64,000 nt of DNA from a virus. Where the stretch lies: positions 91,123-155,122 of IMG/VR virus record IMGVR_UViG_3300029858_000001, one strand, 5' to 3'. Positions within the stretch are counted from its first letter, which is position 1, and every line of letters begins with the position of its first letter. Shown piece by piece: positions 46,890 through 64,000 of the stretch. A program made the position numbers and the translations under genes. Under the pieces are notes generated by a model. The model saw only the letters and a list, made by a program, of their open reading frames with translations. It was not told the DNA's origin and searched no databases.

Positions 46890-47456
46890 TTAACCTTCTT
46901 TTACAACGTTATAACGAGGAGTAGTTCTACGACCAGGAGGCGTTGTGGGCTTAGTTTCGGTCTTTACTCTACGTTCAGGAGCTTTTGGAGTAATTTGCTC
47001 ATCATCTGCAGCTTCAGCTTCCTTATTGGCTAATGCTCGATCAAGATCAAATCCAGTTTTATCCTTAAGAGCTTTACGCTTATTATAATCACTCATAGGA
47101 AGAGACACAGCATAACTCTTAATCATATCAATAACTCCAATAGGAGCAAAATCAAGACAGTCAAGGAATTCATCAAGAGTTCCTTCAGTAAGAAGCTTAA
47201 TAACTCCAGCGTCGTCTAAATAATATTCAGGTTCTGTATGAATACCTAATTCTTCTGTAGTTTCAGTATCCACAATCTTTAAGAAATTTTCCATTAAAGT
47301 GCGGCCTCCGCTAAGATAGGCAAGTTTCTCTAATTCCTCAAAAGGAATTTTCTTAGTTTCTCCAGGTGTAAATTCTCTGCGGATACCTTCTTCAGGAATA
47401 GTATAAACAACCATTCCAGCACTTCTATTAGTAACTATTAAAATTTTTTTACTCAT
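46890..47456 (-). CDS. Hypothetical protein with a basic Pro/Thr-rich tail, TAG-free
   Basis: Intact 188-aa ORF directly after the capsid-gene terminator. Confidence 0.55.
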   Translation of the reverse strand: MSKKILIVTNRSAGMVVYTIPEEGIRREFTPGETKKIPFEELEKLAYLSGGRTLMENFLKIVDTETTEELGIHTEPEYYLDDAGVIKLLTEGTLDEFLDCLDFAPIGVIDMIKSYAVSLPMSDYNKRKALKDKTGFDLDRALANKEAEAADDEQITPKAPERRVKTETKPTTPPGRRTTPRYNVVKEG

Positions 47457-47479
47457 TTTTTTATTCTCCTTTTACTCAT

Positions 47480-47521
47480 AAAACAAAATAGGGGAGAAGG
47501 GGATTTCCCCATTCTCCCCTA
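47480..47521 (-). terminator. Strong rho-independent terminator right after the major capsid gene
   Basis: The minus strand reads aggggagaatggggaaatccccttctcccct followed by attttgtttt. Confidence 0.8.
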
Positions 47522-47555
47522 AAAATATTATATATTAATTTTTAGTTAATATCAA

Positions 47556-48692
47556 TTACGGCTTATCTTCATTTCCGCCATCAATAGTATCATGAGAACC
47601 AGTAATCTGACCAGCATAGTCACGAACCTTACCAGTTACGCCATCAAGATGCCATGTCTTCATATCACCAAGAAGTTCAGTATCACAATAGCAGCAGATG
47701 TTATTAGCTAACATAGCAATAACGCCAACTTTCTTATAAACCTGAATTTCACGGCTACGATCATAATTGGTGTATTCATCAACAATGGTATTGCCTTCCA
47801 TAGCAACCTTTACAGGCTTACTATCAGCACCAGTAGGAATAATCCAAGCATAACCTGGGTCAATGACTTTCTTTTCATTAGTAGCATCTTCAAAGCCCTG
47901 CTCAAGAATAACAACTTTATAGCCCTTATAGGAAGCAAGACGACCAGTATTCCAAAGCTCATTTTTCATAGCTTCAGTATAACGCCAAGCATCCTTCGGA
48001 ATCATACGAACAGCAAATTCATAAGTGCAATAAATAGTAGGAGTACCATAAGCAGAAGCAATCATAAGTAACTTATCAAAGCCGGGTTCATCAAAACCAT
48101 TAGCAACTAAACGGTTAGCAGGAGGTAACTGGTTAACAGAAGCCTTTAAAGCACCGGCAATTTCTTTATAGATAAGTTCGTCCATACCTTCCATGACGAT
48201 CTGGGTAACAACACCAAAATCAACACGGCCATCAAGGAATTCCTCAAAGCCAATTTGAGCAGCTCCGCCGATAGCGCTTGTACGGACTTCAAAGCATTCT
48301 TCAGTCTTACCAAGCTTGAATACTTCATAGATACCAGCTAGGCCGACACGAGTGATGAATTGCTTTGCACGAGTATTGTTGCTGAACTTTCTACGGAAAA
48401 TAGGCTTGTCACCCTGTTTAAACGTCTTAACTTCAGCAAACTGATTGTATTGCTCTTCAACTTTCTTAGGAAGAACTTCATCAATAGTTTCCTCAATCAT
48501 TGAGAAAATAAGGTTCTTATTATCACGATATAAAGAATAAGTTCCAGCAAGTTCATTTAATTCTCTACGGAGAGTTTCATTAAGAGCATCATAAGAAAGG
48601 CTTTCGCCATTAAAGCTGTAAGCAGTAGGAGTAGAAGGATCAGCCTTAGCGACAGTCTTCATTAATTGAACAAGATTTTTTCTATCTAACAT
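47556..48692 (-). CDS. Major capsid protein (HK97-like by size and position), TAG-free 378 codons
   Basis: Intact ORF preceded by a strong RBS GAAAGGAGAG. Positioned after the scaffold-like genes, followed by a strong terminator. GC is higher than the surroundings. Confidence 0.65.
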   Translation of the reverse strand: MLDRKNLVQLMKTVAKADPSTPTAYSFNGESLSYDALNETLRRELNELAGTYSLYRDNKNLIFSMIEETIDEVLPKKVEEQYNQFAEVKTFKQGDKPIFRRKFSNNTRAKQFITRVGLAGIYEVFKLGKTEECFEVRTSAIGGAAQIGFEEFLDGRVDFGVVTQIVMEGMDELIYKEIAGALKASVNQLPPANRLVANGFDEPGFDKLLMIASAYGTPTIYCTYEFAVRMIPKDAWRYTEAMKNELWNTGRLASYKGYKVVILEQGFEDATNEKKVIDPGYAWIIPTGADSKPVKVAMEGNTIVDEYTNYDRSREIQVYKKVGVIAMLANNICCYCDTELLGDMKTWHLDGVTGKVRDYAGQITGSHDTIDGGNEDKP

Positions 48693-48709
48693 TTTTCTTC
48701 TCTCCTTTC

Positions 48710-49486
48710 TTACGCGATTCGCATAATCTTAACGCCCTTTTGATGATCAGGCATTTCATAAACCTTGACAACCTACCATTGGATAGAGCCATCACCAGAC
48801 TTAGAAAGCATACCATCAGTAGCACGAGGACTTAAAACATCGCCAACTGCAAGAGTAGCTTCGGCAATAGTATTAGTCGTAAAAATATCACCAACATTGG
48901 TCTTGAAAACACGAGGAACCATATTAGTACCAGCGGGCATTCTACGGGCCTCATAAGGACCATCAAAATGTAAAGGATCTTCTTCATAGAAGAGTTCACG
49001 AATATCAGGACCAGCAGTAACATCATCATACTCATAAGTATGTTGTACACCCTGACTATCTGTAATAGTCATAGAAGTATTACCTTCGGCGTCCTTACCA
49101 TTTAAATAACGAGCCTGACGTGTACCAATTTCCTGCTTACCATCATATGGGCTGTAGTAACGAGCCTGATAATCATCTTTGCGCATAGCAAATTCGCAAT
49201 CAGCTTGTTCCTCACGATAAAGTTTAATTTCATTATAAACTAACATCCATTCGCCCTTGCCAGTGAAATCAACTTCACCAAGGTCACCAGCAGCATAGTC
49301 ATACTTAACAAACTGGCCATTTTCAAGAAGCTGGATATTTTTGTTAGCAGGTAATTGAGCGTAAATCTGACCAGTGCGCTGAGCACTTAAATGATTAGGC
49401 TCAACCTGACCATAGCCATATTCAACGTAACCGCCCTTAACAGCAGATACGCCGCTTAGGTCTTTAAGCATATCTTTTAAAAGCAT
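48710..49486 (-). CDS. Hypothetical capsid-associated protein (~258 aa), one TAG
   Basis: Track ORF 48773..49486 continues through TAG 48773 for 20 codons to TAA 48710-12. Confidence 0.5.
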
Positions 49487-58202: not shown

Positions 58203-58403
58203 ATGCTGAAAACAGCTTATACAAGAAAACTCGATACAGTTGGACGTTTAATGATTCCTTCTAAACTTCGTGAAGAATTGCATATGGTAAATGGTCATAA
58301 TTATGAATTTTATATTGACGAAGTAGATGGTAAGACTTTTTTATGTATTGAATGTCCTGAAGCCAGTGACGCCGTAGCTCTTGCAAAAGAAACGTTGGAA
58401 TAG
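58203..58403 (+). CDS. AbrB/SpoVT/MazE-family swapped-hairpin DNA-binding protein
   Basis: KLDTVGRLMIPSKLREEL matches the AbrB-N GRvviP..iR motif. RBS AAAGGAG. ATG 58203. Confidence 0.6.
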   Translation: MLKTAYTRKLDTVGRLMIPSKLREELHMVNGHNYEFYIDEVDGKTFLCIECPEASDAVALAKETLE

Positions 58404-58439
58404 AATGGGTATCGAGTAATTAAAGAATAATTAGATTAA

Positions 58440-58475
58440 AGCGGGAAAATATTTTCCCGCTTATTTTTTTTTATA
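58440..58475 (+). terminator. Rho-independent terminator
   Basis: aagcgggaaaatattttcccgctt followed by T10. Confidence 0.8.
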
Positions 58476-58595
58476 AAAATCGTTTTTTAAAATTGAAATA
58501 ATTATCGTTTTCTGAAATTAAAATTATTATCGTTTTTTGAAATTGAAAATGAGTTTAGAAATTATTATCGTTATCTGAAATTGGAATTGAGTTTA
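58469..58595. repeat. Four iteron-like direct repeats (core tatcgtttt[ct]tgaaatt), spaced 25, 25 and 38 bp
   Basis: Units start at 58469, 58494, 58519 and 58557. The last two carry an extra gagtttagaaattatt module. Confidence 0.6.
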
Positions 58596-58654
58596 GAAAT
58601 TATTTTGCCAGGCAGGAAGATTTATCCATTTTTTCCATTTTTTTTACACGAAAC

Positions 58655-58725
58655 CCTGCCCCCCACTTCACTTGACTAAAGTGTTAAAGTCTATTGTCTT
58701 ACTTTACTTGAGTGAAGTGAGTTAG
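58655..58725. repeat. Long imperfect palindrome (cacttcacttgactaaag ... ctttacttgagtgaagtg)
   Basis: 14 of 18 positions match between the arms. Flanked by C-runs. Confidence 0.4.
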
Positions 58726-58774: not shown

Positions 58775-58802
58775 TTGACTTTTTGGAAATAGCCGCTATA
58801 AT
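58775..58802 (+). promoter_or_regulatory. Near-consensus promoter P1 (TTGACT, 16 nt, TATAAT)
   Basis: aaaaagttcttgact ttttggaaatagccgc tataat. Confidence 0.6.
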
Positions 58803-58885: not shown

Positions 58886-58914
58886 TTGACAAACAGAGCG
58901 CCATGTGGTACAAT
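58886..58914 (+). promoter_or_regulatory. Consensus promoter P2 (TTGACA, 17 nt, TACAAT), a tandem duplicate of the P1 upstream context
   Basis: The shared upstream motif ttgaaaaaagttcttgac occurs at both P1 and P2. Confidence 0.6.
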
Positions 58915-58921
58915 TCAAAAT

Positions 58922-59173
58922 GTCAAGAGGACAGAGACAGACCACAGCAAGTTCTCTTGTGTGACGTAAAATGACCGGCAGACGCGGACAGCACCGAACC
59001 GCTTGCACCTTGTAAAGTGAATTTAAGCCAAACGCCTGCACCGCACAGCGGGCGCAATGGTAGAACATGGAAAGTGCGGTGCAAGCTGTAGGGCAGTCCA
59101 ACGCCTACGGCAGACAGCATCACGGACAGGTGACACCTAACAGTCAAATAATATGTAAAGGATTGGTAAAATC
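58922..59173 (+). ncRNA. GC-rich, highly structured ~250-nt leader (or small RNA) between P2 and the first ORF, with mutually exclusive helices
   Basis: gcttgcacc (58996) and tgcaccgcac (59037) can each pair with the overlapping gtgcggtgcaagc (59074-86). GC here is ~55 % against ~30 % elsewhere. Confidence 0.3.
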
Positions 59174-59578
59174 ATGGTTATAAACATATTCACAAGTAAG
59201 GAAGATAAGGAAAAAGCTATCAAGACAGAGCTTGCTGAGCAGGCACAGGACTTGGTAGGATATGTCAAGCAGTACCATATGTTGGGGGACGAGTTCGACT
59301 ATGAACGCACCCTTGAGACATATCATTGTTATGCGGCAAGTAACATTGACGCATGGGATAGCTTAACATGGGCTATTGATAGCGCAGAATATGACCTTGA
59401 GCATACGCCATATAATATGGATATGGAAACCGGCTGTCCATGTGCTGAATATGATGCAATTTACCAGAAGCTGGCAGATATGCGCGAAGAAGCCGAGGAA
59501 TGGGCAAACACCTTTGAGCATATGTTCGAGGACTTCTTTAATAAGCTGTATGACCTGTTATATGGTGAAGAAGCATAA
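59174..59578 (+). CDS. Acidic hypothetical early protein
   Basis: Intact ORF with RBS. TAA stop. Confidence 0.5.
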   Translation: MVINIFTSKEDKEKAIKTELAEQAQDLVGYVKQYHMLGDEFDYERTLETYHCYAASNIDAWDSLTWAIDSAEYDLEHTPYNMDMETGCPCAEYDAIYQKLADMREEAEEWANTFEHMFEDFFNKLYDLLYGEEA

Positions 59579-59631
59579 GCTTCTTCACCCATTCACCTAA
59601 CAACACTTTGACATTATATGGAGGTAAAACT

Positions 59632-59967
59632 ATGAACCGTATCAATAGAAGAGCCATTCGCAAGGAAGCGCTGATGAACACCATCGAGCGCGTTAATACT
59701 GCCATCAGCAAGGTTAACTTCTCTGACCCTAATGGCAAGGACACCTTCCACAAGCTGTTGGACAAGAAGGACTATATTGCTCAGCAGATCGCCGAAGCCA
59801 GCTACACCGAGTATTCGATGAAAGCTAACTATAATGAGGTCAAACGCATTCTCTCTCATATGGATGAAGGCGGCTGTGCTGAGTGGGTCAAGTGGGACAT
59901 TAAGCAGCTGGCAGCAAGTCGGCGTCGCTGGGCTATCGCCACAAGCAAGCAGATTTGGTTGGGCTAA
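59632..59967 (+). CDS. Hypothetical early protein
   Basis: ATG 59632 after GGAGGT. Confidence 0.5.
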   Translation: MNRINRRAIRKEALMNTIERVNTAISKVNFSDPNGKDTFHKLLDKKDYIAQQIAEASYTEYSMKANYNEVKRILSHMDEGGCAEWVKWDIKQLAASRRRWAIATSKQIWLG

Positions 59968-60000
59968 TTGCCCAACCAACCACAGAAAGGGGACAACATT

Positions 60001-60189
60001 ATGTACGCTATCTATAATCACACCACAGGCAAGTATGGCATTATCTACCGCAGTCTGACCGTAGCACGGTCTATGGCTCACGCTTACAGCATATGGGCAA
60101 AGAATGACAGAGATGTCATTGATATGCAGACTGGCGAAGTAATGAGTCAGTTTAGCAAAGGACACGAAACTTATAGGGCTATGGCTTAA
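60001..60189 (+). CDS. Hypothetical early protein (62 aa)
   Basis: ATG 60001 after AGAAAGGGGA. Confidence 0.45.
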   Translation: MYAIYNHTTGKYGIIYRSLTVARSMAHAYSIWAKNDRDVIDMQTGEVMSQFSKGHETYRAMA

Positions 60190-60224
60190 TTGCCATAGCC
60201 TACCAATAGAAAGGAGATAACATT

Positions 60225-60530
60225 ATGTTCTCTACAAAAATCGCATTCGTTAATTCGACTGGCAGCACCTATGACTGCGCCGAGTTCTTTACAAAATGCC
60301 CTTGGTGCGATAGCACCGAAGAAGCCACCAAGAGAAAGAAAGAATGGCTGGGGCGGCTTGAGGAAGTGCTGTACATTATGCAAGAGCTGGAACCTTGTGA
60401 CAGCCGCAACTGGGCACATAACTTGTGGGACAAAGAATCTGTGGAATTCAATTTCCATAATCTGACAAAACATCTGGTCATTCTGATCAAAGGTCCATTC
60501 AGTTTTCAGGTAATGGTGAGGGACATTTAA
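60225..60530 (+). CDS. Hypothetical Cys-containing early protein
   Basis: AAAGGAG RBS. CPWCD motif. Confidence 0.5.
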   Translation: MFSTKIAFVNSTGSTYDCAEFFTKCPWCDSTEEATKRKKEWLGRLEEVLYIMQELEPCDSRNWAHNLWDKESVEFNFHNLTKHLVILIKGPFSFQVMVRDI

Positions 60531-60598
60531 GTCCCTCTACCGCTTACCAACCGCACAATCGAGCGCATGAATTGAATTTTCGGAAAGGAATTTTTGAA

Positions 60599-60751
60599 AT
60601 GAAAAATTTCAAACTCGCTATTTACCTTACCTCAGTCATAGTCTTACTCTGGATTAGCATTTCATTTTGCAATGTAGTTGCGCATAATAATCCGGCTGAT
60701 GGGGCTTATGAATATCCCTCTTGGAACTTTTTCGTGATGATGGAGGATTGA
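60599..60751 (+). CDS. Possible 50-aa single-TM peptide
   Basis: RBS GGAAAGGAA. Hydrophobic core LAIYLTSVIVLLWISISF. Confidence 0.3.
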   Translation: MKNFKLAIYLTSVIVLLWISISFCNVVAHNNPADGAYEYPSWNFFVMMED

Positions 60752-60752
60752 A

Positions 60753-60998
60753 ATGAAAAATCAACATAGATGGTCAGGCGAATGGACACAGAGGGGAGCG
60801 CTTGGAGCGCATGACCTCTTTACTCTCAATGGCGAATGGGATGATATTCTCTATATCCCAGTTGGCGCAGAGGGCTGGGCGGATGGGGCTAATGCTTTCA
60901 ACCTCTCAACTCAGGAATTTGAAATCATTCCTCAACATTGGGAAGTCTTTAAGGTAGACCTTGATAGGTCTAGGGCAAATTGGAGTGAAGAGGGTTAA
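60753..60998 (+). CDS. Trp/acidic-rich hypothetical early protein
   Basis: Intact ORF with GGAGGA RBS. Confidence 0.5.
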   Translation: MKNQHRWSGEWTQRGALGAHDLFTLNGEWDDILYIPVGAEGWADGANAFNLSTQEFEIIPQHWEVFKVDLDRSRANWSEEG

Positions 60999-61013
60999 GA
61001 CCCTCTTCACTTA

Positions 61014-61205
61014 ATGAAAGGAATAATTGAAATGGAAATGGTCAGAACCTTGCTCGATGGCTGGCTGCCCGTGAAGCCATTCTCTTATGTATATGGCATT
61101 TATTGGGATTATCTCTACACTGATTCCTATAAAGGAATTGAATTCAATGTCTATAAACATATAACTAACGAAATGTGTGTTGTTCTCACAAGTGAAATAA
61201 TTTGA
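61014..61205 (+). CDS. Hypothetical small protein
   Basis: ORF only. Weak RBS. Confidence 0.3.
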   Translation: MKGIIEMEMVRTLLDGWLPVKPFSYVYGIYWDYLYTDSYKGIEFNVYKHITNEMCVVLTSEII

Positions 61206-61219
61206 AAGGAAAAACGAAA

Positions 61220-61531
61220 ATGATAAACATTCGCACAATCAAGAAACTGACTGATGGCGATGGTCTGACCCTTAAGAATGGAAAAATCAAGAGGTACAAG
61301 AGTGGCTATCAGGTAGCTACTAATGGCGTCGAAGTCATCAGTCCTGAAATGGCAATACAGGCGGTTCGAGAGTTCAAAGGCACTTGCGGCATTTGGCTTG
61401 AAAATGGCAGATACTACATTGACATTTCTAAACGAGTCAGCACCAAACGCGAAGCAGTTGAAATTGGCAAGAAATGTAATCAGCTTTCAATTTACAGATG
61501 GCGCGGCAATCCTGCCTGCCTTTATATTTAA
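61220..61531 (+). CDS. Small early protein, paralog A of a tandem pair
   Basis: MINIRTIKKLTDGDGLTLKNGKIKRYKSGYQV. Confidence 0.5.
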   Translation: MINIRTIKKLTDGDGLTLKNGKIKRYKSGYQVATNGVEVISPEMAIQAVREFKGTCGIWLENGRYYIDISKRVSTKREAVEIGKKCNQLSIYRWRGNPACLYI

Positions 61532-61554
61532 GATTTGAAAAGGAGAAATAAAAA

Positions 61555-61872
61555 ATGATTAACGTTAGAACTATCAAGAAAATGCTGGACGGCGATACCC
61601 TGAATATCAAGAACGGGAAAATCAAGAAGTACAAGGGCGGTTTTCAGGTGAATGTGCAGACCTATGAACATGACAGTCCTGAATCTGCTATCTTCTGGGC
61701 GAAACTGCTTAACACTCTGGATGGCGGTTGCAGTATTCAATTCAAAAATGGAAAATATTACGTCAGCACCACGAAGCACGCCTATACCAGACGACAGGCA
61801 AGGGAAATGGCAAATGATGCAGGTCAGGGCGCTATTTATGAATGGCAGAATCTGGCTCATATGGCAGTTTGA
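61555..61872 (+). CDS. Small early protein, paralog B
   Basis: MINVRTIKKMLDGDTLNIKNGKIKKYKGGFQV. It is followed by a hairpin plus T-run at 61880-61915. Confidence 0.5.
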   Translation: MINVRTIKKMLDGDTLNIKNGKIKKYKGGFQVNVQTYEHDSPESAIFWAKLLNTLDGGCSIQFKNGKYYVSTTKHAYTRRQAREMANDAGQGAIYEWQNLAHMAV

Positions 61873-61879
61873 TCCTGAA

Positions 61880-61915
61880 ATTCCAAGGGCTGGAAATTGG
61901 AAACAGTTTCCAGCC
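61880..61915 (+). terminator. Rho-independent terminator
   Basis: gggctggaaattggaaacagtttccagccc followed by attttt. Confidence 0.6.
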
Positions 61916-62185
61916 CATTTTTCAAATCCTCTTCTTTAATTCATTATCACTTTAATCAAATGAATTGCCTCGCCGGGGCGTGGCGAAATTGATATATCCA
62001 CAGCAAGCTCGCCACGCCCCGCATTTTCCATTTAATACCAATTCCGAATATTTCCAGCCAAATTCTACCATATCTGGTATTACATTCCATTTCCCATATC
62101 CTACCAGCTTATGGTATATAATTCCATACCAAATATTTCCAGAATCTTTGTGCATATTGACGAATAAAAAAATTTAACTTTCCTA

Positions 62186-62214
62186 TTGACATTTGCCCTA
62201 GGGTGTGCTAATAT
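62186..62214 (+). promoter_or_regulatory. Consensus-like promoter (TTGACA, 17 nt, TAATAT)
   Basis: ttgaca tttgccctagggtgtgc taatat. Confidence 0.5.
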
Positions 62215-62242
62215 ATAATTGTTCCAAGGGAACAGATAAAAA

Positions 62243-62428
62243 ATGAAATGGAGATACAAAAAAATGACTACTGAAAAAATCGCTGAACTGCTGAACGAAT
62301 GGATTGATAATGACCATGATTTTAGTGCGGAATCCATGAATGACTTCTGCAATACATATGCCCGCAATTATGACGAGTATATGGGTCTGTGGTACACAGT
62401 CTGCGGTTGCATCGAGGAGGAGGACTAA
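62243..62428 (+). CDS. Hypothetical small acidic protein
   Basis: Intact ORF. Confidence 0.45.
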   Translation: MKWRYKKMTTEKIAELLNEWIDNDHDFSAESMNDFCNTYARNYDEYMGLWYTVCGCIEEED

Positions 62429-62432
62429 CATC

Positions 62433-62573
62433 ATGTATGAGTTTGAAATGTATAATGTCAACACAAAAGAAACTGAAACTGCATATGGCTACTCCCTAGC
62501 AGACGCTAGGGAGAGAAGCCCAAAGTATAACAGCCGTGAATGGGTTTGTCTAATGTCTACTTATATTGATTAA
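62433..62573 (+). CDS. Hypothetical small protein
   Basis: ATG 62433 after GAGGAGGAGG. Confidence 0.4.
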   Translation: MYEFEMYNVNTKETETAYGYSLADARERSPKYNSREWVCLMSTYID

Positions 62574-62586
62574 GGGGGAAATAAAA

Positions 62587-62775
62587 ATGAAAATGTCTGA
62601 ATTTGTATTGAACGTTCTTGATAAAGATATGCTGATTGATATTATCAGCCACGTTGCCGATTGTGGGGTCTGCCCATTCAAAATGGCTTGTAAAGATGCA
62701 ACACAAGATCTTCCAGAAGAAACTTGTGAACAGTTCCTTAACCGTTGGATTGAAGATGATAGGAACGAGGGCTGA
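62587..62775 (+). CDS. Hypothetical small Cys-containing protein
   Basis: ATG 62587 after AAGGGGGAA. TGA sits inside the hairpin gagggctgaaaagccctc. Confidence 0.45.
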   Translation: MKMSEFVLNVLDKDMLIDIISHVADCGVCPFKMACKDATQDLPEETCEQFLNRWIEDDRNEG

Positions 62776-62805
62776 AAAGCCCTCTTCCAAAAGGAGGAAA
62801 TTAAA

Positions 62806-63129
62806 ATGGATATTACAAAATTGCAAGTCAGTAAACATTTCAGAGATGACCGCCTAGACAGATATATTGAAATTCAAATGAACACCGGACTAGGCGAACC
62901 TGTGGCAAAATTCAAATATGAGGACAAATGGCAGATTATTACAAATACAGGAGTGATTTTGATTACAGATAGCCGGATGGAATTTCTAATCACTTTGTAT
63001 TATGTCAACATGGATAAAGCAACTGCAATTTTCAGACGAAACGGGCAGATGAAAATGCCGAAAGTAGTATATGACGCAATTCAAAAGAACATGGCGAAAA
63101 AGCTAATCAAACATAGAAAGGAAAAATAA
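62806..63129 (+). CDS. Hypothetical protein
   Basis: Intact ORF with AAAGGAGGAA RBS. Confidence 0.5.
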   Translation: MDITKLQVSKHFRDDRLDRYIEIQMNTGLGEPVAKFKYEDKWQIITNTGVILITDSRMEFLITLYYVNMDKATAIFRRNGQMKMPKVVYDAIQKNMAKKLIKHRKEK

Positions 63130-63131
63130 AA

Positions 63132-63359
63132 ATGAAAATCGAATATGAAAAGCCAAAACAGATTATCCACTTTGCAGCTCTGGAGGTTGGAACCGTATTC
63201 CGCGACCCGTCTGATGATGCGATTTATATGAAAACTGAATATATCGATAATGATGGTGATGAAATCAATTCAATTAACTTGGCTACCGGAGAACTTGATT
63301 GTCTTCGCGATGACGCAAAAGTTTATCCTGTAGACGCTACATTATATATTAAGGAGTGA
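63132..63359 (+). CDS. Hypothetical protein
   Basis: Intact ORF. Confidence 0.45.
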   Translation: MKIEYEKPKQIIHFAALEVGTVFRDPSDDAIYMKTEYIDNDGDEINSINLATGELDCLRDDAKVYPVDATLYIKE

Positions 63360-63365
63360 TAAAAA

Positions 63366-63578
63366 ATGGAAGGATATAAGACCTGGAAATATCTGGTAAT
63401 TAACTTCCTCCCTACAAAAGACTGGCCGCGATTGTTTTTTGTAGAAGCTTCGTGTCGTTCGGAAGCTGAACATTATATTCAAAAACACTGTGGAAAAGAC
63501 TATATGCTGGTGGATAAATACGATGAATTTGTCGCAAAAATTCTTGATTATCCCGAAATTCCGCATGATAAATTCTAA
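63366..63578 (+). CDS. Hypothetical protein
   Basis: Intact ORF. Confidence 0.45.
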   Translation: MEGYKTWKYLVINFLPTKDWPRLFFVEASCRSEAEHYIQKHCGKDYMLVDKYDEFVAKILDYPEIPHDKF

Positions 63579-63589
63579 TTTCCATTTGA

Positions 63590-63632
63590 ATTTCCTCCCA
63601 AGATATGGGAGGAAATTCTATTTTGAAATTTT
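63590..63632 (+). terminator. Rho-independent terminator
   Basis: gaatttcctcccaagatatgggaggaaattc followed by tattttgaaatttt. Confidence 0.6.
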
Positions 63633-63675
63633 GTATAAAATATGATATAATAAAATAAAAAAAGGATTGATATTT

Positions 63676-64000
63676 AATGAATAAAAATGAATTGGCTAAA
63701 TATTGCAATACTACTATCGGATAGGTAGAAAGAAATTTTCCAAAACTTAAAAATAAATTTCTAAAATAGGGTATTCTTATTACGAAAGAGGGACAAGGAG
63801 AACAAGCCGTTTATACAATATCAGAAACTATTCCTATAAATATTCCATTTGTTCCTAAATATACGAAAGAAAAAAAATGGGATAAAGATTTAGAAAATGA
63901 ATAGTGGATTGACATTTATGGAATAGATGGATTTGAAATTTCTAATTATGGTAGAGTAAGAAATAAAAATACATTACAATTACATAAATCTTCTACTCAT
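63676..64000 (+). CDS. NUMOD4/HNH-type homing endonuclease, 3' partial; AT-rich with four or more in-frame TAG codons
   Basis: W-x-D-I-x-G-x-x-G-F-E-I-S-N-x-G-R-V-R-N is the NUMOD4 motif that precedes HNH. ATG 63676 after AAAGGA. TAGs at 63724, 63775, 63895 and 63916. Confidence 0.55.

What the first reader, a model, noticed from the sequence alone, without database searches (positions are those of the whole stretch)
58900..63600. Compositionally foreign early block (~45-50 % GC against ~30 %) of small TAA-terminated genes, with stop codons embedded in short GC hairpins
From the P2 leader to ~63.6 kb the GC content jumps. The genes are short (50-134 aa) and end in TAA or TGA. Several stops sit inside small perfect hairpins (gagggac-attTAAgtccctc at 60516, tgaagagggtTAAgaccctcttca at 60978, gagggcTGAaaagccctc at 62768). 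A conserved intergenic spacer, taattgcc...aaaggRgaYaacattatg, recurs at 59950 and 60185. This looks like a horizontally acquired host-takeover or anti-defence cassette. The cassette lacks the AT-rich, TAG-containing signature of the rest of the genome.
Basis: seen in the sequence. Interest (0 to 1): 0.55.

Follow-up and report, generated by a model that had tools for sequence, protein, structure and literature searches.

The report
Host-dialect early gene block, recoded phage
This is not foreign DNA: it is the conserved start of the early-gene arm of a phage that reads TAG as an amino acid, written in standard code with G/C-ending codons and punctuated by conserved hairpins that hold the stop codons.

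Summary
Window 58.9-62 kb is 41-52% GC and 62-63.6 kb is 35-41%, against 25-30% elsewhere. The block holds 15 small + strand genes ending in TAA (10) or TGA (5), none with TAG. The rest of the window needs TAG read-through.

Six stop codons, not three, sit in loops of perfect 7-12 bp hairpins without T-tracts. The background rate is 1.5%.

The "horizontally acquired" reading is not supported. The same block lies beside the same packaging genes in all 31 distinct relatives examined, always richer in GC than the late genes. Homologues have 0 in-frame stops in 13,163 residues, against 925 in 81,520 for late proteins.

The shift is in synonymous codons: GC3 is 0.46 against 0.16, while unstructured intergenic DNA moves only from 27% to 32%.

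In a relative with 98% identical terminase, the block heads a roughly 50 kb arm. Along it GC3 falls from 0.52 to 0.15 while TAG use rises, towards a tRNA array.

Hairpins persist in relatives with entirely different stem sequences.

Best reading: an early, standard-code operon pair adapted to the unmodified host translation apparatus, with structured RNA punctuation. Protein functions remain unknown.

The parts
58775..58802 (+). Promoter P1 (TTGACT-16-TATAAT)
   Evidence: Consensus scan, 11 of 12 matches. It shares an exact 20-nt upstream repeat, TTTTGAAAAAAGTTCTTGAC, with P2. Conserved in relatives.
58886..58914 (+). Promoter P2 (TTGACA-17-TACAAT with TG extension)
   Evidence: Consensus scan, 11 of 12 matches. 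Conserved in relatives.
58921..59170 (+). Non-coding leader, 52% GC, probably a structured RNA. The main helix is 59037-59046 paired with 59074-59083.
   Evidence: No ORF is conserved here. 59004-59170 is 90% identical in L075, where the next gene is only 41% identical at protein level. The helix changes on both sides in L075 and is replaced by other complementary pairs in a second leader type in L078 and L003. There is one copy per genome and no Rfam match.
59174..59578 (+). g01, 134 aa, net charge -23, all-helical. First gene of operon A.
   Evidence: ORF and RBS. pI 4.1. 171 homologues at E <= 0.001; the 120 best listed are 70-92% identical to g01. AF2 pLDDT 88. Only generic helical-bundle matches.
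59564..59589 (+). Stop-in-loop hairpin of g01: 11 bp stem, loop ATAA.
   Evidence: The orthologues in L075 and L003 have a different 10-bp stem, CCGGAAGAGG/CCTCTTCCGG.
59632..59967 (+). g02, 111 aa, basic.
   Evidence: Homologues in 7 relatives.
59955..59979 (+). Stop-in-loop hairpin of g02: 10 bp stem, loop TAATT.
   Evidence: Orthologues show five different perfectly complementary stems.
60001..60189 (+). g03, 62 aa.
60177..60200 (+). Stop-in-loop hairpin of g03: 9 bp stem.
   Evidence: Orthologues have three different stems; the hairpin is absent in L075.
60225..60530 (+). g04, 101 aa. A divergent allele compared with relatives.
   Evidence: DNA homology with relatives breaks at 60215 and resumes at 60511. 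Relatives carry a distantly related gene with the same ending...VVRDI.
60518..60537 (+). Stop-in-loop hairpin of g04: 7 bp stem.
   Evidence: L066 and L036 have TGA in place of TAA. L002 has GAAGGACC/GGTCCTTC.
60599..60751 (+). g05, 50 aa, hydrophobic core; likely a membrane peptide.
60753..60998 (+). g06, 81 aa. A present-or-absent cassette.
   Evidence: Found in only 3 relatives, at 91-98% identity. Homology breakpoints at 60748 and 61024.
60984..61011 (+). Stop-in-loop hairpin of g06: 12 bp stem, loop TAAG.
61032..61205 (+). g07, 57 aa.
61220..61872 (+). g08 (61220-61531) and g09 (61555-61872), basic paralogues of 103 and 105 aa. These are the most widespread genes of the block.
61887..61916 (+). 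Canonical intrinsic terminator ending operon A.
   Evidence: 13-bp stem followed by a T-tract.
61917..62185 (+). Conserved spacer with an 18-bp inverted repeat (61974-62021) and a C-rich + strand.
   Evidence: GC skew -0.40 to -0.47. Inverted repeat I7. Aligned with relatives at 82-90%.
62186..62214 (+). Promoter P3 (TTGACA-17-TAATAT with TG extension).
62243..63578 (+). Operon B: g10 (62243 or 62264 to 62428), g11 (62433-62573), g12 (62587-62775, four invariant Cys), g13 (62806-63129), g14 (63132-63359), g15 (63366-63578).
   Evidence: g12 cysteines. No Pfam family above threshold.
62767..62784 (+). Stop-in-loop hairpin of g12: 7 bp stem.
   Evidence: L003 has TGGAAGAGGG/CCCTCTTCCA instead.
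63588..63618 (+). Canonical intrinsic terminator ending operon B.
   Evidence: 13-bp stem followed by a T-tract.

Best explanation
The block is the promoter-proximal head of the phage's own early, standard-code arm. The phage is a large TAG-recoded siphovirus of Bacillota, related to SPbeta, Geobacillus E3 and phAss-1.

Layout. Two operons with sigma-70-type promoters carry 15 small genes. Operon A runs from P1/P2 through a structured leader and g01-g09 to a terminator. Operon B runs from P3 through g10-g15 to a terminator.

Composition. The high GC comes almost entirely from synonymous codon choice: CTG, GGC, CAG, TTC, AAC and GAC replace TTA, GGT, CAA/TAG, TTT, AAT and GAT. I infer that these genes must be translated immediately after infection by the host's unmodified tRNA pool and release factors. 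Later genes are written in an A/U-ending, TAG=Gln dialect that fits the phage's own tRNA array and whatever suppresses TAG.

Hairpins. The hairpins that enclose six stop codons are selected structures, kept by compensatory change. They are not canonical terminators. I infer that they act in the early polycistronic RNA as 3'/5' stabilisers, processing boundaries or weak pause sites that set relative expression. They coincide with the boundaries at which gene cassettes are swapped among relatives.

Shown: composition, code usage, conservation, compensatory change, and the operon signals. Inferred: early timing, codon adaptation to the host, an RNA-level role for the hairpins, and a host-takeover role for the proteins.
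For: - TAG recoding outside the block. No TAG inside it.
- GC3 is 0.46 in the block, 0.17 in late genes and 0.15 in replication genes. Preferences flip, for example CTG 35% against 1% and CAG 74% against 19%.
- Every gene outside the block has GC3 of 0.29 or less.
- Unstructured intergenic DNA is 31.8% GC in the block and 26.9% elsewhere. So GC3 lies above the non-coding level in the block and below it elsewhere.
- The block is syntenic in relatives. The GC step is present in all 31 distinct relatives, mean +8 points over 6 kb.
- Homologues have 0 in-frame stops in 13,163 residues, against 925 in 81,520 for terminase and portal.
- In a relative with 98% identical terminase, GC3 falls from 0.52 to 0.15 over 100 + strand genes (rho -0.68). 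TAG rises from 0 to 13 per 1000 codons. The arm runs towards an array of at least 11 tRNAs, many with U34 anticodons.
- Bacillota host type: terminase relatives and YonD/YonG domains, strong Shine-Dalgarno sequences and TTGACA-17-TATAAT promoters.
- Hairpins: 6 of 15 stops against 1.5% background. Clade-wide, 102 of 445 early stops against 4 of 314 late stops.
- Orthologous hairpins have different, perfectly complementary stems. None of the six has a T-tract.
- Homology breakpoints fall at gene boundaries.
Against: - The host is unknown, so 'host-like codons' is not tested against a real tRNA set. The names of the MAG bins that hold relatives disagree with one another.
- Early timing is inferred from architecture only.
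- Replication genes are AT-rich with few TAG, so GC3 and TAG use are not strictly coupled.
- In the relative, TAG use starts upstream of the tRNA array in map order.
- No CUA suppressor tRNA was found. There is only a tRNA-like gene whose loop reads as anticodon UUA.
- The stems are almost all perfect Watson-Crick. Internal G-U against A-C mismatches number 5 against 3, and flanking ones 27 against 16. This does not show that the structure acts in RNA rather than DNA.
- The gradient was measured in a relative, because the window ends at 64 kb.
Confidence: 0.6

Rival explanations
1. Recent horizontal acquisition: a cassette from a donor of about 45% GC that has not yet drifted to the phage's composition. 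A softer form holds that the early arm is continually refreshed from a higher-GC pan-phage gene pool.
For: - Atypical composition.
- Cassette-level mosaicism: neighbouring genes are 32-99% identical to the same relative.
- A related group, the phAss-1 phages, has 44.5% GC genome-wide (PMC10607447).
- Block intergenic DNA is slightly richer in GC than elsewhere.
Against: - Same position and the same GC step in all 31 distinct relatives.
- Well-conserved orthologues such as g08 (96-99% identical in the closest relatives) keep high GC3.
- No mobility genes or flanking repeats in the block. The only mobile-type gene nearby, the one with the NUMOD4 motif, has the AT-rich, TAG-containing dialect.
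- The composition forms a roughly 50 kb gradient rather than an island.
- No match in GenBank phages outside the clade.
Confidence: 0.12
2. The hairpins are factor-dependent or partial transcription terminators or pause sites that create a polarity gradient along operon A. The conserved leader RNA is a cis-acting antitermination element, in the manner of HK022 put or Bacillus EAR.
For: - GC-rich stems of 7-12 bp at gene ends, concentrated in the first 3 kb after the promoter.
- In more distant relatives, 20 of 76 distinct hairpins do carry T-tracts.
- A highly conserved structured leader lies directly downstream of the promoter, in one copy per genome.
- From my own knowledge: NusA- and NusG-stimulated termination at weak terminators is known in Bacillus.
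Against: - None of the six window hairpins has a T-tract.
- The operon ends in a strong canonical terminator, so the phage does use ordinary terminators where it wants termination.
- The leader matches no Rfam family, EAR included.
- The 5' arm is coding, so a translating ribosome would melt the stem.
Confidence: 0.2
3. The inverted repeats act in DNA as recombination boundaries that shuffle early-gene cassettes, working like the PeSL elements of T4-type phages.
For: - Homology breakpoints at 60215, 60511, 60748, 61024, 61204, 61531 and 61932 coincide with hairpins and ribosome-binding segments.
- Divergent g04 alleles share the same terminal hairpin.
- Stems are almost always perfect Watson-Crick palindromes.
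- Distant relatives have hairpins that contain a promoter.
Against: - The window hairpins differ in sequence from gene to gene, so they offer little homology for recombination.
- They contain no promoter.
- Breakpoints at gene boundaries are also what selection on viable recombinants would leave behind.
Confidence: 0.2
4. The high GC serves a nucleic-acid-level need rather than codon adaptation. Candidates are early mRNAs resistant to AU-preferring host RNases, or early DNA that escapes AT-targeting silencers or nucleases.
For: - The structured parts are the richest in GC: the leader at 52%, and the hairpins.
- The GC gradient follows map order.
Against: - Unstructured intergenic DNA in the block is only 5 points above background, which argues against a DNA-level requirement.
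- Codon choice is specific rather than simply G/C-rich: ACG 3% and TCG 7%, but ACC 33%, AGC 30% and CTG 35%.
Confidence: 0.15

Closest known systems
Standard-code early genes of stop-codon-recoded phages (model of Borges et al., bioRxiv 10.1101/2021.08.26.457843; phAss-1 group, PMC10607447)
   Same: The genome reads TAG as sense in structural and late genes, and a set of genes is compatible with the host's standard code. A tRNA array is present in close relatives. The phage type is a large siphovirus with a tape-measure protein of about 3140 aa and a DNA polymerase III alpha subunit, as in phAss-1.
   Different: In the passages of those two papers that I searched I found no within-genome codon dialect. 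Here GC3 differs by 30 points, grades over about 50 kb, and is conserved across the clade. I also found no mention there of stop-in-loop hairpins or of the leader RNA. No CUA suppressor tRNA was found here.
PeSL elements and hyperplastic ORFan regions of T4-type phages (PMC2839356, PMC4122927)
   Same: Runs of small early genes of unknown function, with stem-loops at gene boundaries and indel or replacement breakpoints at those boundaries. In more distant relatives a TTGACA/TATAAT promoter is embedded in the hairpin.
   Different: The window hairpins carry no promoter, are not conserved in sequence between genes, lack T-tracts and enclose the stop codon. The hosts are Bacillota rather than Gram-negative bacteria.
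Intercistronic RNA stem-loops that stabilise or process polycistronic mRNAs. Examples from my own knowledge: REP elements in E. coli operons, RNase III sites in T7 and SP82 early RNA.
   Same: Stable hairpins lie between cistrons of a polycistronic early transcript and are not followed by U-tracts.
   Different: Stems of 7-12 bp are too short for classical RNase III sites. The 5' arm is coding and the stop lies in the loop. No processing data exist.
Early/late codon-usage differences in phages with tRNA genes (for example PMC5683454)
   Same: Early and late genes use different synonymous codons, and the phage clade encodes many tRNAs.
   Different: The size of the difference, its coupling to a change of genetic code, and its graded form along the map.

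Membership tests
Standard-code early module of a stop-codon-recoded phage | The genome uses a reassigned stop codon as sense in late or structural genes. | tested here: met
   ORF coverage doubles when TAG is read through, and there are 270 TAG in 13,014 late codons. The late-protein control shows 925 in-frame stops in relatives.
Standard-code early module of a stop-codon-recoded phage | The module itself has no in-frame reassigned stop, in this genome and in relatives. | tested here: met
   0 TAG in 1225 codons. 0 in-frame stops in 13,163 aligned residues of homologues.
Standard-code early module of a stop-codon-recoded phage | Expressed before the recoded genes. | not testable with these tools
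   Only indirect signs: three sigma-70-type promoters, small genes of unknown function, and position at the head of the + strand arm.
Standard-code early module of a stop-codon-recoded phage | The phage encodes code-change machinery: a suppressor tRNA, a release factor or an aminoacyl-tRNA synthetase. | tested here: inconclusive
   No tRNA in the window. Close relatives have an array of at least 11 tRNAs, with no CUA anticodon called. One Rfam tRNA hit (48.5 bits) has a loop that reads as anticodon UUA.
Horizontally acquired island | Atypical composition. | tested here: met
Horizontally acquired island | Patchy presence: absent from close relatives or found at other sites. | tested here: not met
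   Same position and the same GC step in all 31 distinct relatives.
Horizontally acquired island | Mobility genes, a flanking tRNA gene or flanking direct repeats. | tested here: not met
   None in 58.9-63.6 kb. The gene with the NUMOD4 motif lies outside the block and is AT-rich with TAG codons.
Canonical intrinsic terminators (for the six stop hairpins) | A G+C-rich stem followed by a T-tract. | tested here: not met
   The scan finds only 58439-58462, 61887-61916 and 63588-63618 as strong sites. The tails after the six hairpins lack T runs.
PeSL (promoter-early stem-loop) of T4-type phages | A composite promoter plus terminator motif, conserved in sequence from copy to copy. | tested here: not met
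   The window hairpins have six different sequences and no promoter. Promoter-in-hairpin forms occur only in more distant relatives.
PeSL (promoter-early stem-loop) of T4-type phages | Located at indel or replacement breakpoints between genes of unknown function. | tested here: met
   Breakpoints at 60215, 60511, 60748, 61024, 61204, 61531 and 61932.
DNA-mimic anti-restriction proteins (Ocr/ArdA type) for g01 | A very acidic small protein encoded first in the early operon. | tested here: met
   Net charge -23, pI 4.1, first gene after the leader.
DNA-mimic anti-restriction proteins (Ocr/ArdA type) for g01 | Fold or sequence similarity to a known mimic. | tested here: not met
Zinc-binding anti-sigma factors (HxxxCxxC) for g12 | A conserved H-x3-C-x2-C motif and a Pfam zf-HC2 match above threshold. 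| tested here: not met
   zf-HC2 scores 14.6 bits against a cut-off of 22.2. The His is not conserved; four Cys are invariant.
Any described RNA family (for the leader) | A match to an Rfam covariance model. | tested here: not met
   No hit in 58.9-59.2 kb at E up to 1.

The most novel reading that the evidence does not exclude
The block is the first step of a genome-wide 'codon dialect gradient'. From the early promoters onward, synonymous codon choice slides from host-type G/C-ending codons with no TAG to A/U-ending codons with TAG=Gln. The slide spans about 50 kb and roughly 100 genes and runs towards the phage's tRNA array. Map position would then time each protein's synthesis to the progressive conversion of the cell's translation apparatus. 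The conserved leader RNA and the stop-in-loop hairpins would be the RNA-level punctuation of the first, host-dependent stage.
Probability: 0.35. Interest if true: 0.75.

Novelty: new variant of a known kind. Interest (0 to 1): 0.55.

Why it matters
Phages that reassign a stop codon must still start infection in a cell that uses the standard code. This locus shows what that first stage looks like in one large, uncultured clade of gut and rumen phages.

- **A second dialect.** The early genes avoid TAG and also use a different synonymous-codon dialect. The pattern is conserved across the clade and, in a close relative, fades gradually along the genome. If it reflects adaptation to a changing translation apparatus, it gives a sequence-only way to read gene timing in uncultured recoded phages.
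- **A practical warning.** Composition-based 'foreign DNA' or prophage-boundary calls will misfire inside such genomes.
- **Testable RNA elements.** The stop-in-loop hairpins and the leader are compact, conserved RNA elements that can be tested directly.
- **Candidate proteins.** The 15 small proteins include one family with several hundred unannotated homologues and no fold match in the solved-structure libraries searched. All are candidates for host-takeover or anti-defence functions.

Tried and rejected
- **DNA searches.** Searches of the block and of 18.5 kb of late genes against GenBank phages found nothing. Only protein-level searches placed the phage.
- **Protein families.** Pfam (all 15 proteins) and PHROGs (g01-g10 only) gave no family above threshold. 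No anti-defence or anti-CRISPR library was available and PADLOC was not run.
- **g12 as an anti-sigma factor.** Rejected because the His of the motif is not conserved.
- **RNA or DNA level for the hairpins.** Counting G-U against A-C mismatches gave too few cases to decide: 5 against 3 internal, 27 against 16 flanking.
- **Host identification.** The genome collection returned MAG bins named Mollicutes, Acutalibacteraceae, Bacteroidales, Treponema, Clostridium and Muribaculaceae. They contradict each other and probably reflect mis-binned phage contigs.
- **Suppressor tRNA.** This found a tRNA array but no CUA anticodon.
- **Minus-strand ORF 61952-62155.** Dismissed because it has no ribosome-binding site.
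- **An error of mine.** My first query for the AbrB-like gene was one base out of frame. The correct frame is 58203-58403/58430 and matches MraZ/AbrB.

Full report

Yes.

*Composition.* In 1-kb windows GC is 0.46, 0.44, 0.41 and 0.38 for 59-63 kb, against 0.23-0.35 almost everywhere else. In 200-nt windows GC rises from about 0.21-0.34 at 58.4-58.9 kb to 0.525 at 58.9-59.1 kb. It stays at 0.39-0.51 to 62 kb, falls to 0.35-0.41 to 63.6 kb, and drops to 0.23-0.27 after that.

*Recoding in the rest of the window.* Stop-to-stop ORFs of at least 100 codons cover 35 kb under the standard code and 72 kb when TAG is read through. One ORF of 3142 codons holds 108 TAG.

*Genes.* The block holds 15 + strand ORFs of 46-134 aa, each preceded by a Shine-Dalgarno sequence. 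Ten end in TAA and five in TGA. None contains TAG.

Three more lie at the ends of g01, g02 and g03. In all, 6 of 15 stops lie in the loop of a perfect 7-12 bp stem. The rate is 1.5% for the 194 other TAA/TGA trinucleotides in the block, giving a binomial probability of about 6e-8.

**2. What genome is this?**

DNA searches against GenBank phages find nothing. Three lines of evidence place the phage:
- The large terminase is 42-47% identical to those of Geobacillus virus E3, Enterococcus phages EF1, H1 and VRE9_4, and phAss-1, and 32-36% identical to those of Brevibacillus and Bacillus phages that annotate it as YonF or terminase.
- Neighbouring structural genes carry YonD_N and YonG_N domains.
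- The window encodes a DNA polymerase III alpha-type polymerase, an anaerobic ribonucleotide reductase, and an ORF of 3142 codons. That length matches the tape-measure proteins of 3149-3209 aa reported for the TAG-recoded phAss-1 group (PMC10607447).

With strong Shine-Dalgarno sites and TTGACA-17-TATAAT promoters, the host is most likely a member of the Bacillota. I could not identify it. The MAG bins that contain relatives carry mutually inconsistent names.

**3. Anatomy of the block**

Upstream of the block lie an AbrB/MraZ-like gene (58203-58430), a terminator (58439-58462) and iteron-like repeats. Two tandem promoters follow, P1 (58775) and P2 (58886). They share an exact 20-nt upstream repeat.

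A leader of about 250 nt and 52% GC comes next.
- **Operon A:** g01-g09 (59174-61872), closed by a canonical terminator (61887-61916).
- **Spacer:** 270 nt, conserved, containing an 18-bp inverted repeat.
- **Operon B:** promoter P3 (62186), then g10-g15 (to 63578), closed by a second canonical terminator (63588-63618).

After that come a new promoter and an AT-rich gene with three in-frame TAG and a NUMOD4 homing-endonuclease motif. Relatives lack this gene at this position.

**4. Foreign or native?**

I retrieved 77 related loci with the terminase. The block genes lie at the same position next to the same packaging genes in L001, L002, L003, L036, L059, L066 and L075. Several of them (g07, g08/g09, g10, g13, g14) also occur in relatives with only 76-77% terminase identity.

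The GC step occurs at the same place in essentially every relative. In all 31 distinct loci the early side is richer in GC than the late side, by 8 points on average over a crude 6-kb window.

Homologues of the block proteins show 0 in-frame stops in 13,163 aligned residues. Terminase and portal homologues in the same loci show 925 in 81,520.

This is a conserved property of the lineage, not a recent acquisition. What does happen is exchange within the clade. Identity to one and the same relative ranges from 32% to 99% between adjacent genes. DNA homology breaks at gene boundaries: 60215, 60511, 60748, 61024, 61204, 61531 and 61932.

**5. Where does the extra GC sit?**

It sits at synonymous sites.

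| Gene set | GC1 | GC2 | GC3 |
|---|---|---|---|
| Block | 0.47 | 0.34 | 0.46 |
| Late genes | 0.41 | 0.31 | 0.17 |
| Replication genes | 0.42 | 0.31 | 0.15 |

Codon preferences flip between block and late genes:

| Codon | Block | Late genes |
|---|---|---|
| CTG | 35% | 1% |
| TTA | 5% | 66% |
| GGC | 50% | 16% |
| CAG | 74% | 19% |
| TTC | 60% | 18% |

- The choice is codon-specific rather than simply G/C-rich: ACG 3% and TCG 7%, against ACC 33% and AGC 30%.
- No gene outside the block exceeds GC3 of 0.29. The highest values outside belong to the capsid region.
- Unstructured intergenic DNA is 31.8% GC in the block and 26.9% elsewhere.
- GC3 therefore lies well above the non-coding level in the block and well below it elsewhere.

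This points to codon-level selection in opposite directions. It argues against a regional mutational bias or a DNA-level requirement.

**6. The block is the head of a gradient**

I walked along a contig from a relative whose terminase is 98% identical (IMGVR_UViG_3300045988_164317, 144.6 kb). The + strand arm that begins at the early promoters runs for more than 50 kb.

Over its 100 genes GC3 falls from 0.52 to 0.15 (Spearman rho -0.68, p = 7e-15). TAG rises from 0 per 1000 codons in the first 14 kb, to 1-3 in the middle, to 9-13 near the end.

The arm ends in an array of at least 11 tRNA genes, many with U at the wobble position: Leu-UAG, Lys-UUU, Val-UAC, Glu-UUC and Ala-UGC. ARAGORN calls no CUA suppressor. 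Rfam finds one extra tRNA (48.5 bits) whose loop, AUUUAAU, reads as anticodon UUA. It is present in the contigs of L281 and L282, and L281 comes from the same contig as L066, one of the closest relatives.

This fits the published model in which recoded phages begin in standard code and switch later (bioRxiv 10.1101/2021.08.26.457843). It adds a graded codon dialect that I did not find in the passages of that paper or of the phAss-1 paper returned by my term searches. Two limits apply. The gradient was measured in a relative, not in this phage. And TAG use starts before the tRNA array in map order.

**7. The stop-in-loop hairpins**

None of the six has a T-tract. The terminator scan picks only the three canonical sites.

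They are conserved as structures, not as sequences.

| Gene end | This phage | Relatives |
|---|---|---|
| g01 | GGTGAAGAAGC/GCTTCTTCACC | CCGGAAGAGG/CCTCTTCCGG in L075 and L003 |
| g02 | one stem | five different perfect stems across relatives in all |
| g03 | one stem | three different perfect stems across relatives in all |
| g04 | one stem | two stems in all |
| g12 | one stem | two stems in all |

In every case the stop codon stays in the loop. Because the 5' arm encodes the last three or four residues, the C-terminal residues change along with the stem.

Across 31 relatives, 102 of 445 early-block stops lie in such hairpins, against 4 of 314 late-gene stops. In the close relative they cluster in the first 3 kb. 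I could not decide whether selection acts on RNA or on DNA, because the stems are almost always perfect Watson-Crick and informative mismatches are too few.

The most economical reading is RNA punctuation of a polycistronic early transcript: protection of 3' and 5' ends, processing, or weak pausing. Such hairpins also mark the places where cassettes are exchanged. Factor-dependent termination and PeSL-like recombination remain live rivals. In more distant relatives many gene-end hairpins do carry T-tracts, or have a TTGACA box in the loop followed by TATAAT. That form is closer to the PeSL idea (PMC2839356, PMC4122927).

**8. The leader**

Positions 59004-59170 are 90% identical in L075, where g01 is only 41% identical at protein level.

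The main helix pairs 59037-59046 with 59074-59083 (TGCACCGCAC/GTGCGGTGCA). In L075 it becomes ...GCTC/GAGC.... In a second leader type, other complementary pairs take its place: GTTAGTG/CACTGAC in L078, with one G-U pair, and TCTAAG/CTTAGA in L003.

The leader occurs once per genome and matches no Rfam family. The fold of the single sequence is not exceptional (z = -1.6), so the case rests on conservation and compensatory change. Its function is unknown. A regulatory or antitermination role is possible.

**9. The proteins**

- **Family searches.** None has a Pfam family above threshold; g01-g10 were also scanned against PHROGs and gave nothing above threshold.
- **g01** is very acidic (net charge -23) and all-helical. 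It has 171 homologues at E <= 0.001; the 120 best listed are 70-92% identical, and several of them lie on long contigs (105-191 kb) like those of the clade. It matches only generic helical bundles. A DNA-mimic role is a guess and not a finding.
- **g08 and g09** are basic paralogues with 493 unannotated homologues. The model is confident, but no fold matches.
- **g12** has four invariant cysteines but not the anti-sigma His.
- **g05** looks like a small membrane peptide.

'Host takeover or anti-defence' remains an inference from context.

**10. Verdict**

The 'foreign, horizontally acquired' part is not supported.

The locus is a new variant of a known kind, namely the standard-code early module of a stop-codon-recoded phage. 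What is new is a strong, conserved and graded codon dialect, conserved stop-in-loop hairpins, and an undescribed structured leader.

Noticed in passing
window 58921-59170: A conserved leader of 52% GC between P2 and g01, better conserved than the flanking genes. Its main helix (59037-59046 with 59074-59083) changes on both sides in relatives. A second sequence type occurs in L078 and L003. No Rfam match.
   Followed up: partly
window 58473-58719: Iteron-like direct repeats of 25 and 38 nt (58473-58596) and an inverted repeat (58664-58682 with 58701-58719) lie between the terminator of the AbrB-like gene and P1, and are conserved in relatives. They could be an origin, a packaging site or an operator array.
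   Followed up: no
window 61917-62185: A conserved 270-nt spacer between the two operons. Its + strand is strongly C-rich (GC skew -0.4 to -0.47). It holds an 18-bp inverted repeat at 61974-62021 and many TTCCA motifs. The minus-strand ORF here has no ribosome-binding site.
   Followed up: partly
window 63623-64000: A promoter followed by an AT-rich gene with three in-frame TAG and a NUMOD4 homing-endonuclease motif (E = 6e-7 with TAG read as Gln). Relatives lack it at this position, so a mobile gene written in the late dialect has been inserted into the early arm.
   Followed up: partly
window 58203-58430: The AbrB/MraZ-like regulator gene just upstream of the early promoters has a TAG nine codons before its TAA. 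It would yield a short form in standard code and a longer form once TAG is read through.
   Followed up: no
L021, L004, L005, L018, L049, L057 (early side, minus strand of the loci): In relatives with about 63-78% terminase identity, many early gene ends carry hairpins whose loop is a TTGACA box and whose 3' side runs into TATAAT. Example: ATAGCATATAGGGCTTgacaaaacAAGCCCTATATGCTATaat. This is a promoter-in-hairpin unit that recalls the PeSL elements of T4-type phages.
   Followed up: partly
L279-L282, about 12-20 kb (contig IMGVR_UViG_3300045988_164317, about 137.8-142.3 kb): A tRNA array of at least 11 genes. Two tRNAs carry inserts of 58-73 nt in the anticodon loop (Trp-CCA and Met-CAU, by ARAGORN with introns allowed). 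In L281 and L282, a 71-nt Rfam tRNA hit missed by ARAGORN has a loop, AUUUAAU, that implies anticodon UUA.
   Followed up: partly
L090, L177, L195, L276, L280 (contig IMGVR_UViG_3300045988_164317, 86-142 kb): GC3 declines smoothly from 0.52 to 0.15 and TAG density rises from 0 to 13 per 1000 codons along about 100 + strand genes (rho -0.68). AT-rich minus-strand inserts interrupt the arm at about 102-103 kb.
   Followed up: yes
L049 3535-3610: One relative carries a tRNA-Lys (UUU) inside its GC-rich early block, on the same strand as the early genes.
   Followed up: no
window 46890-49486: The capsid-region genes have the highest GC3 outside the block (0.19-0.29) and 0-1 TAG. This is consistent with weaker selection of the same kind on very highly expressed late genes.
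   Followed up: no
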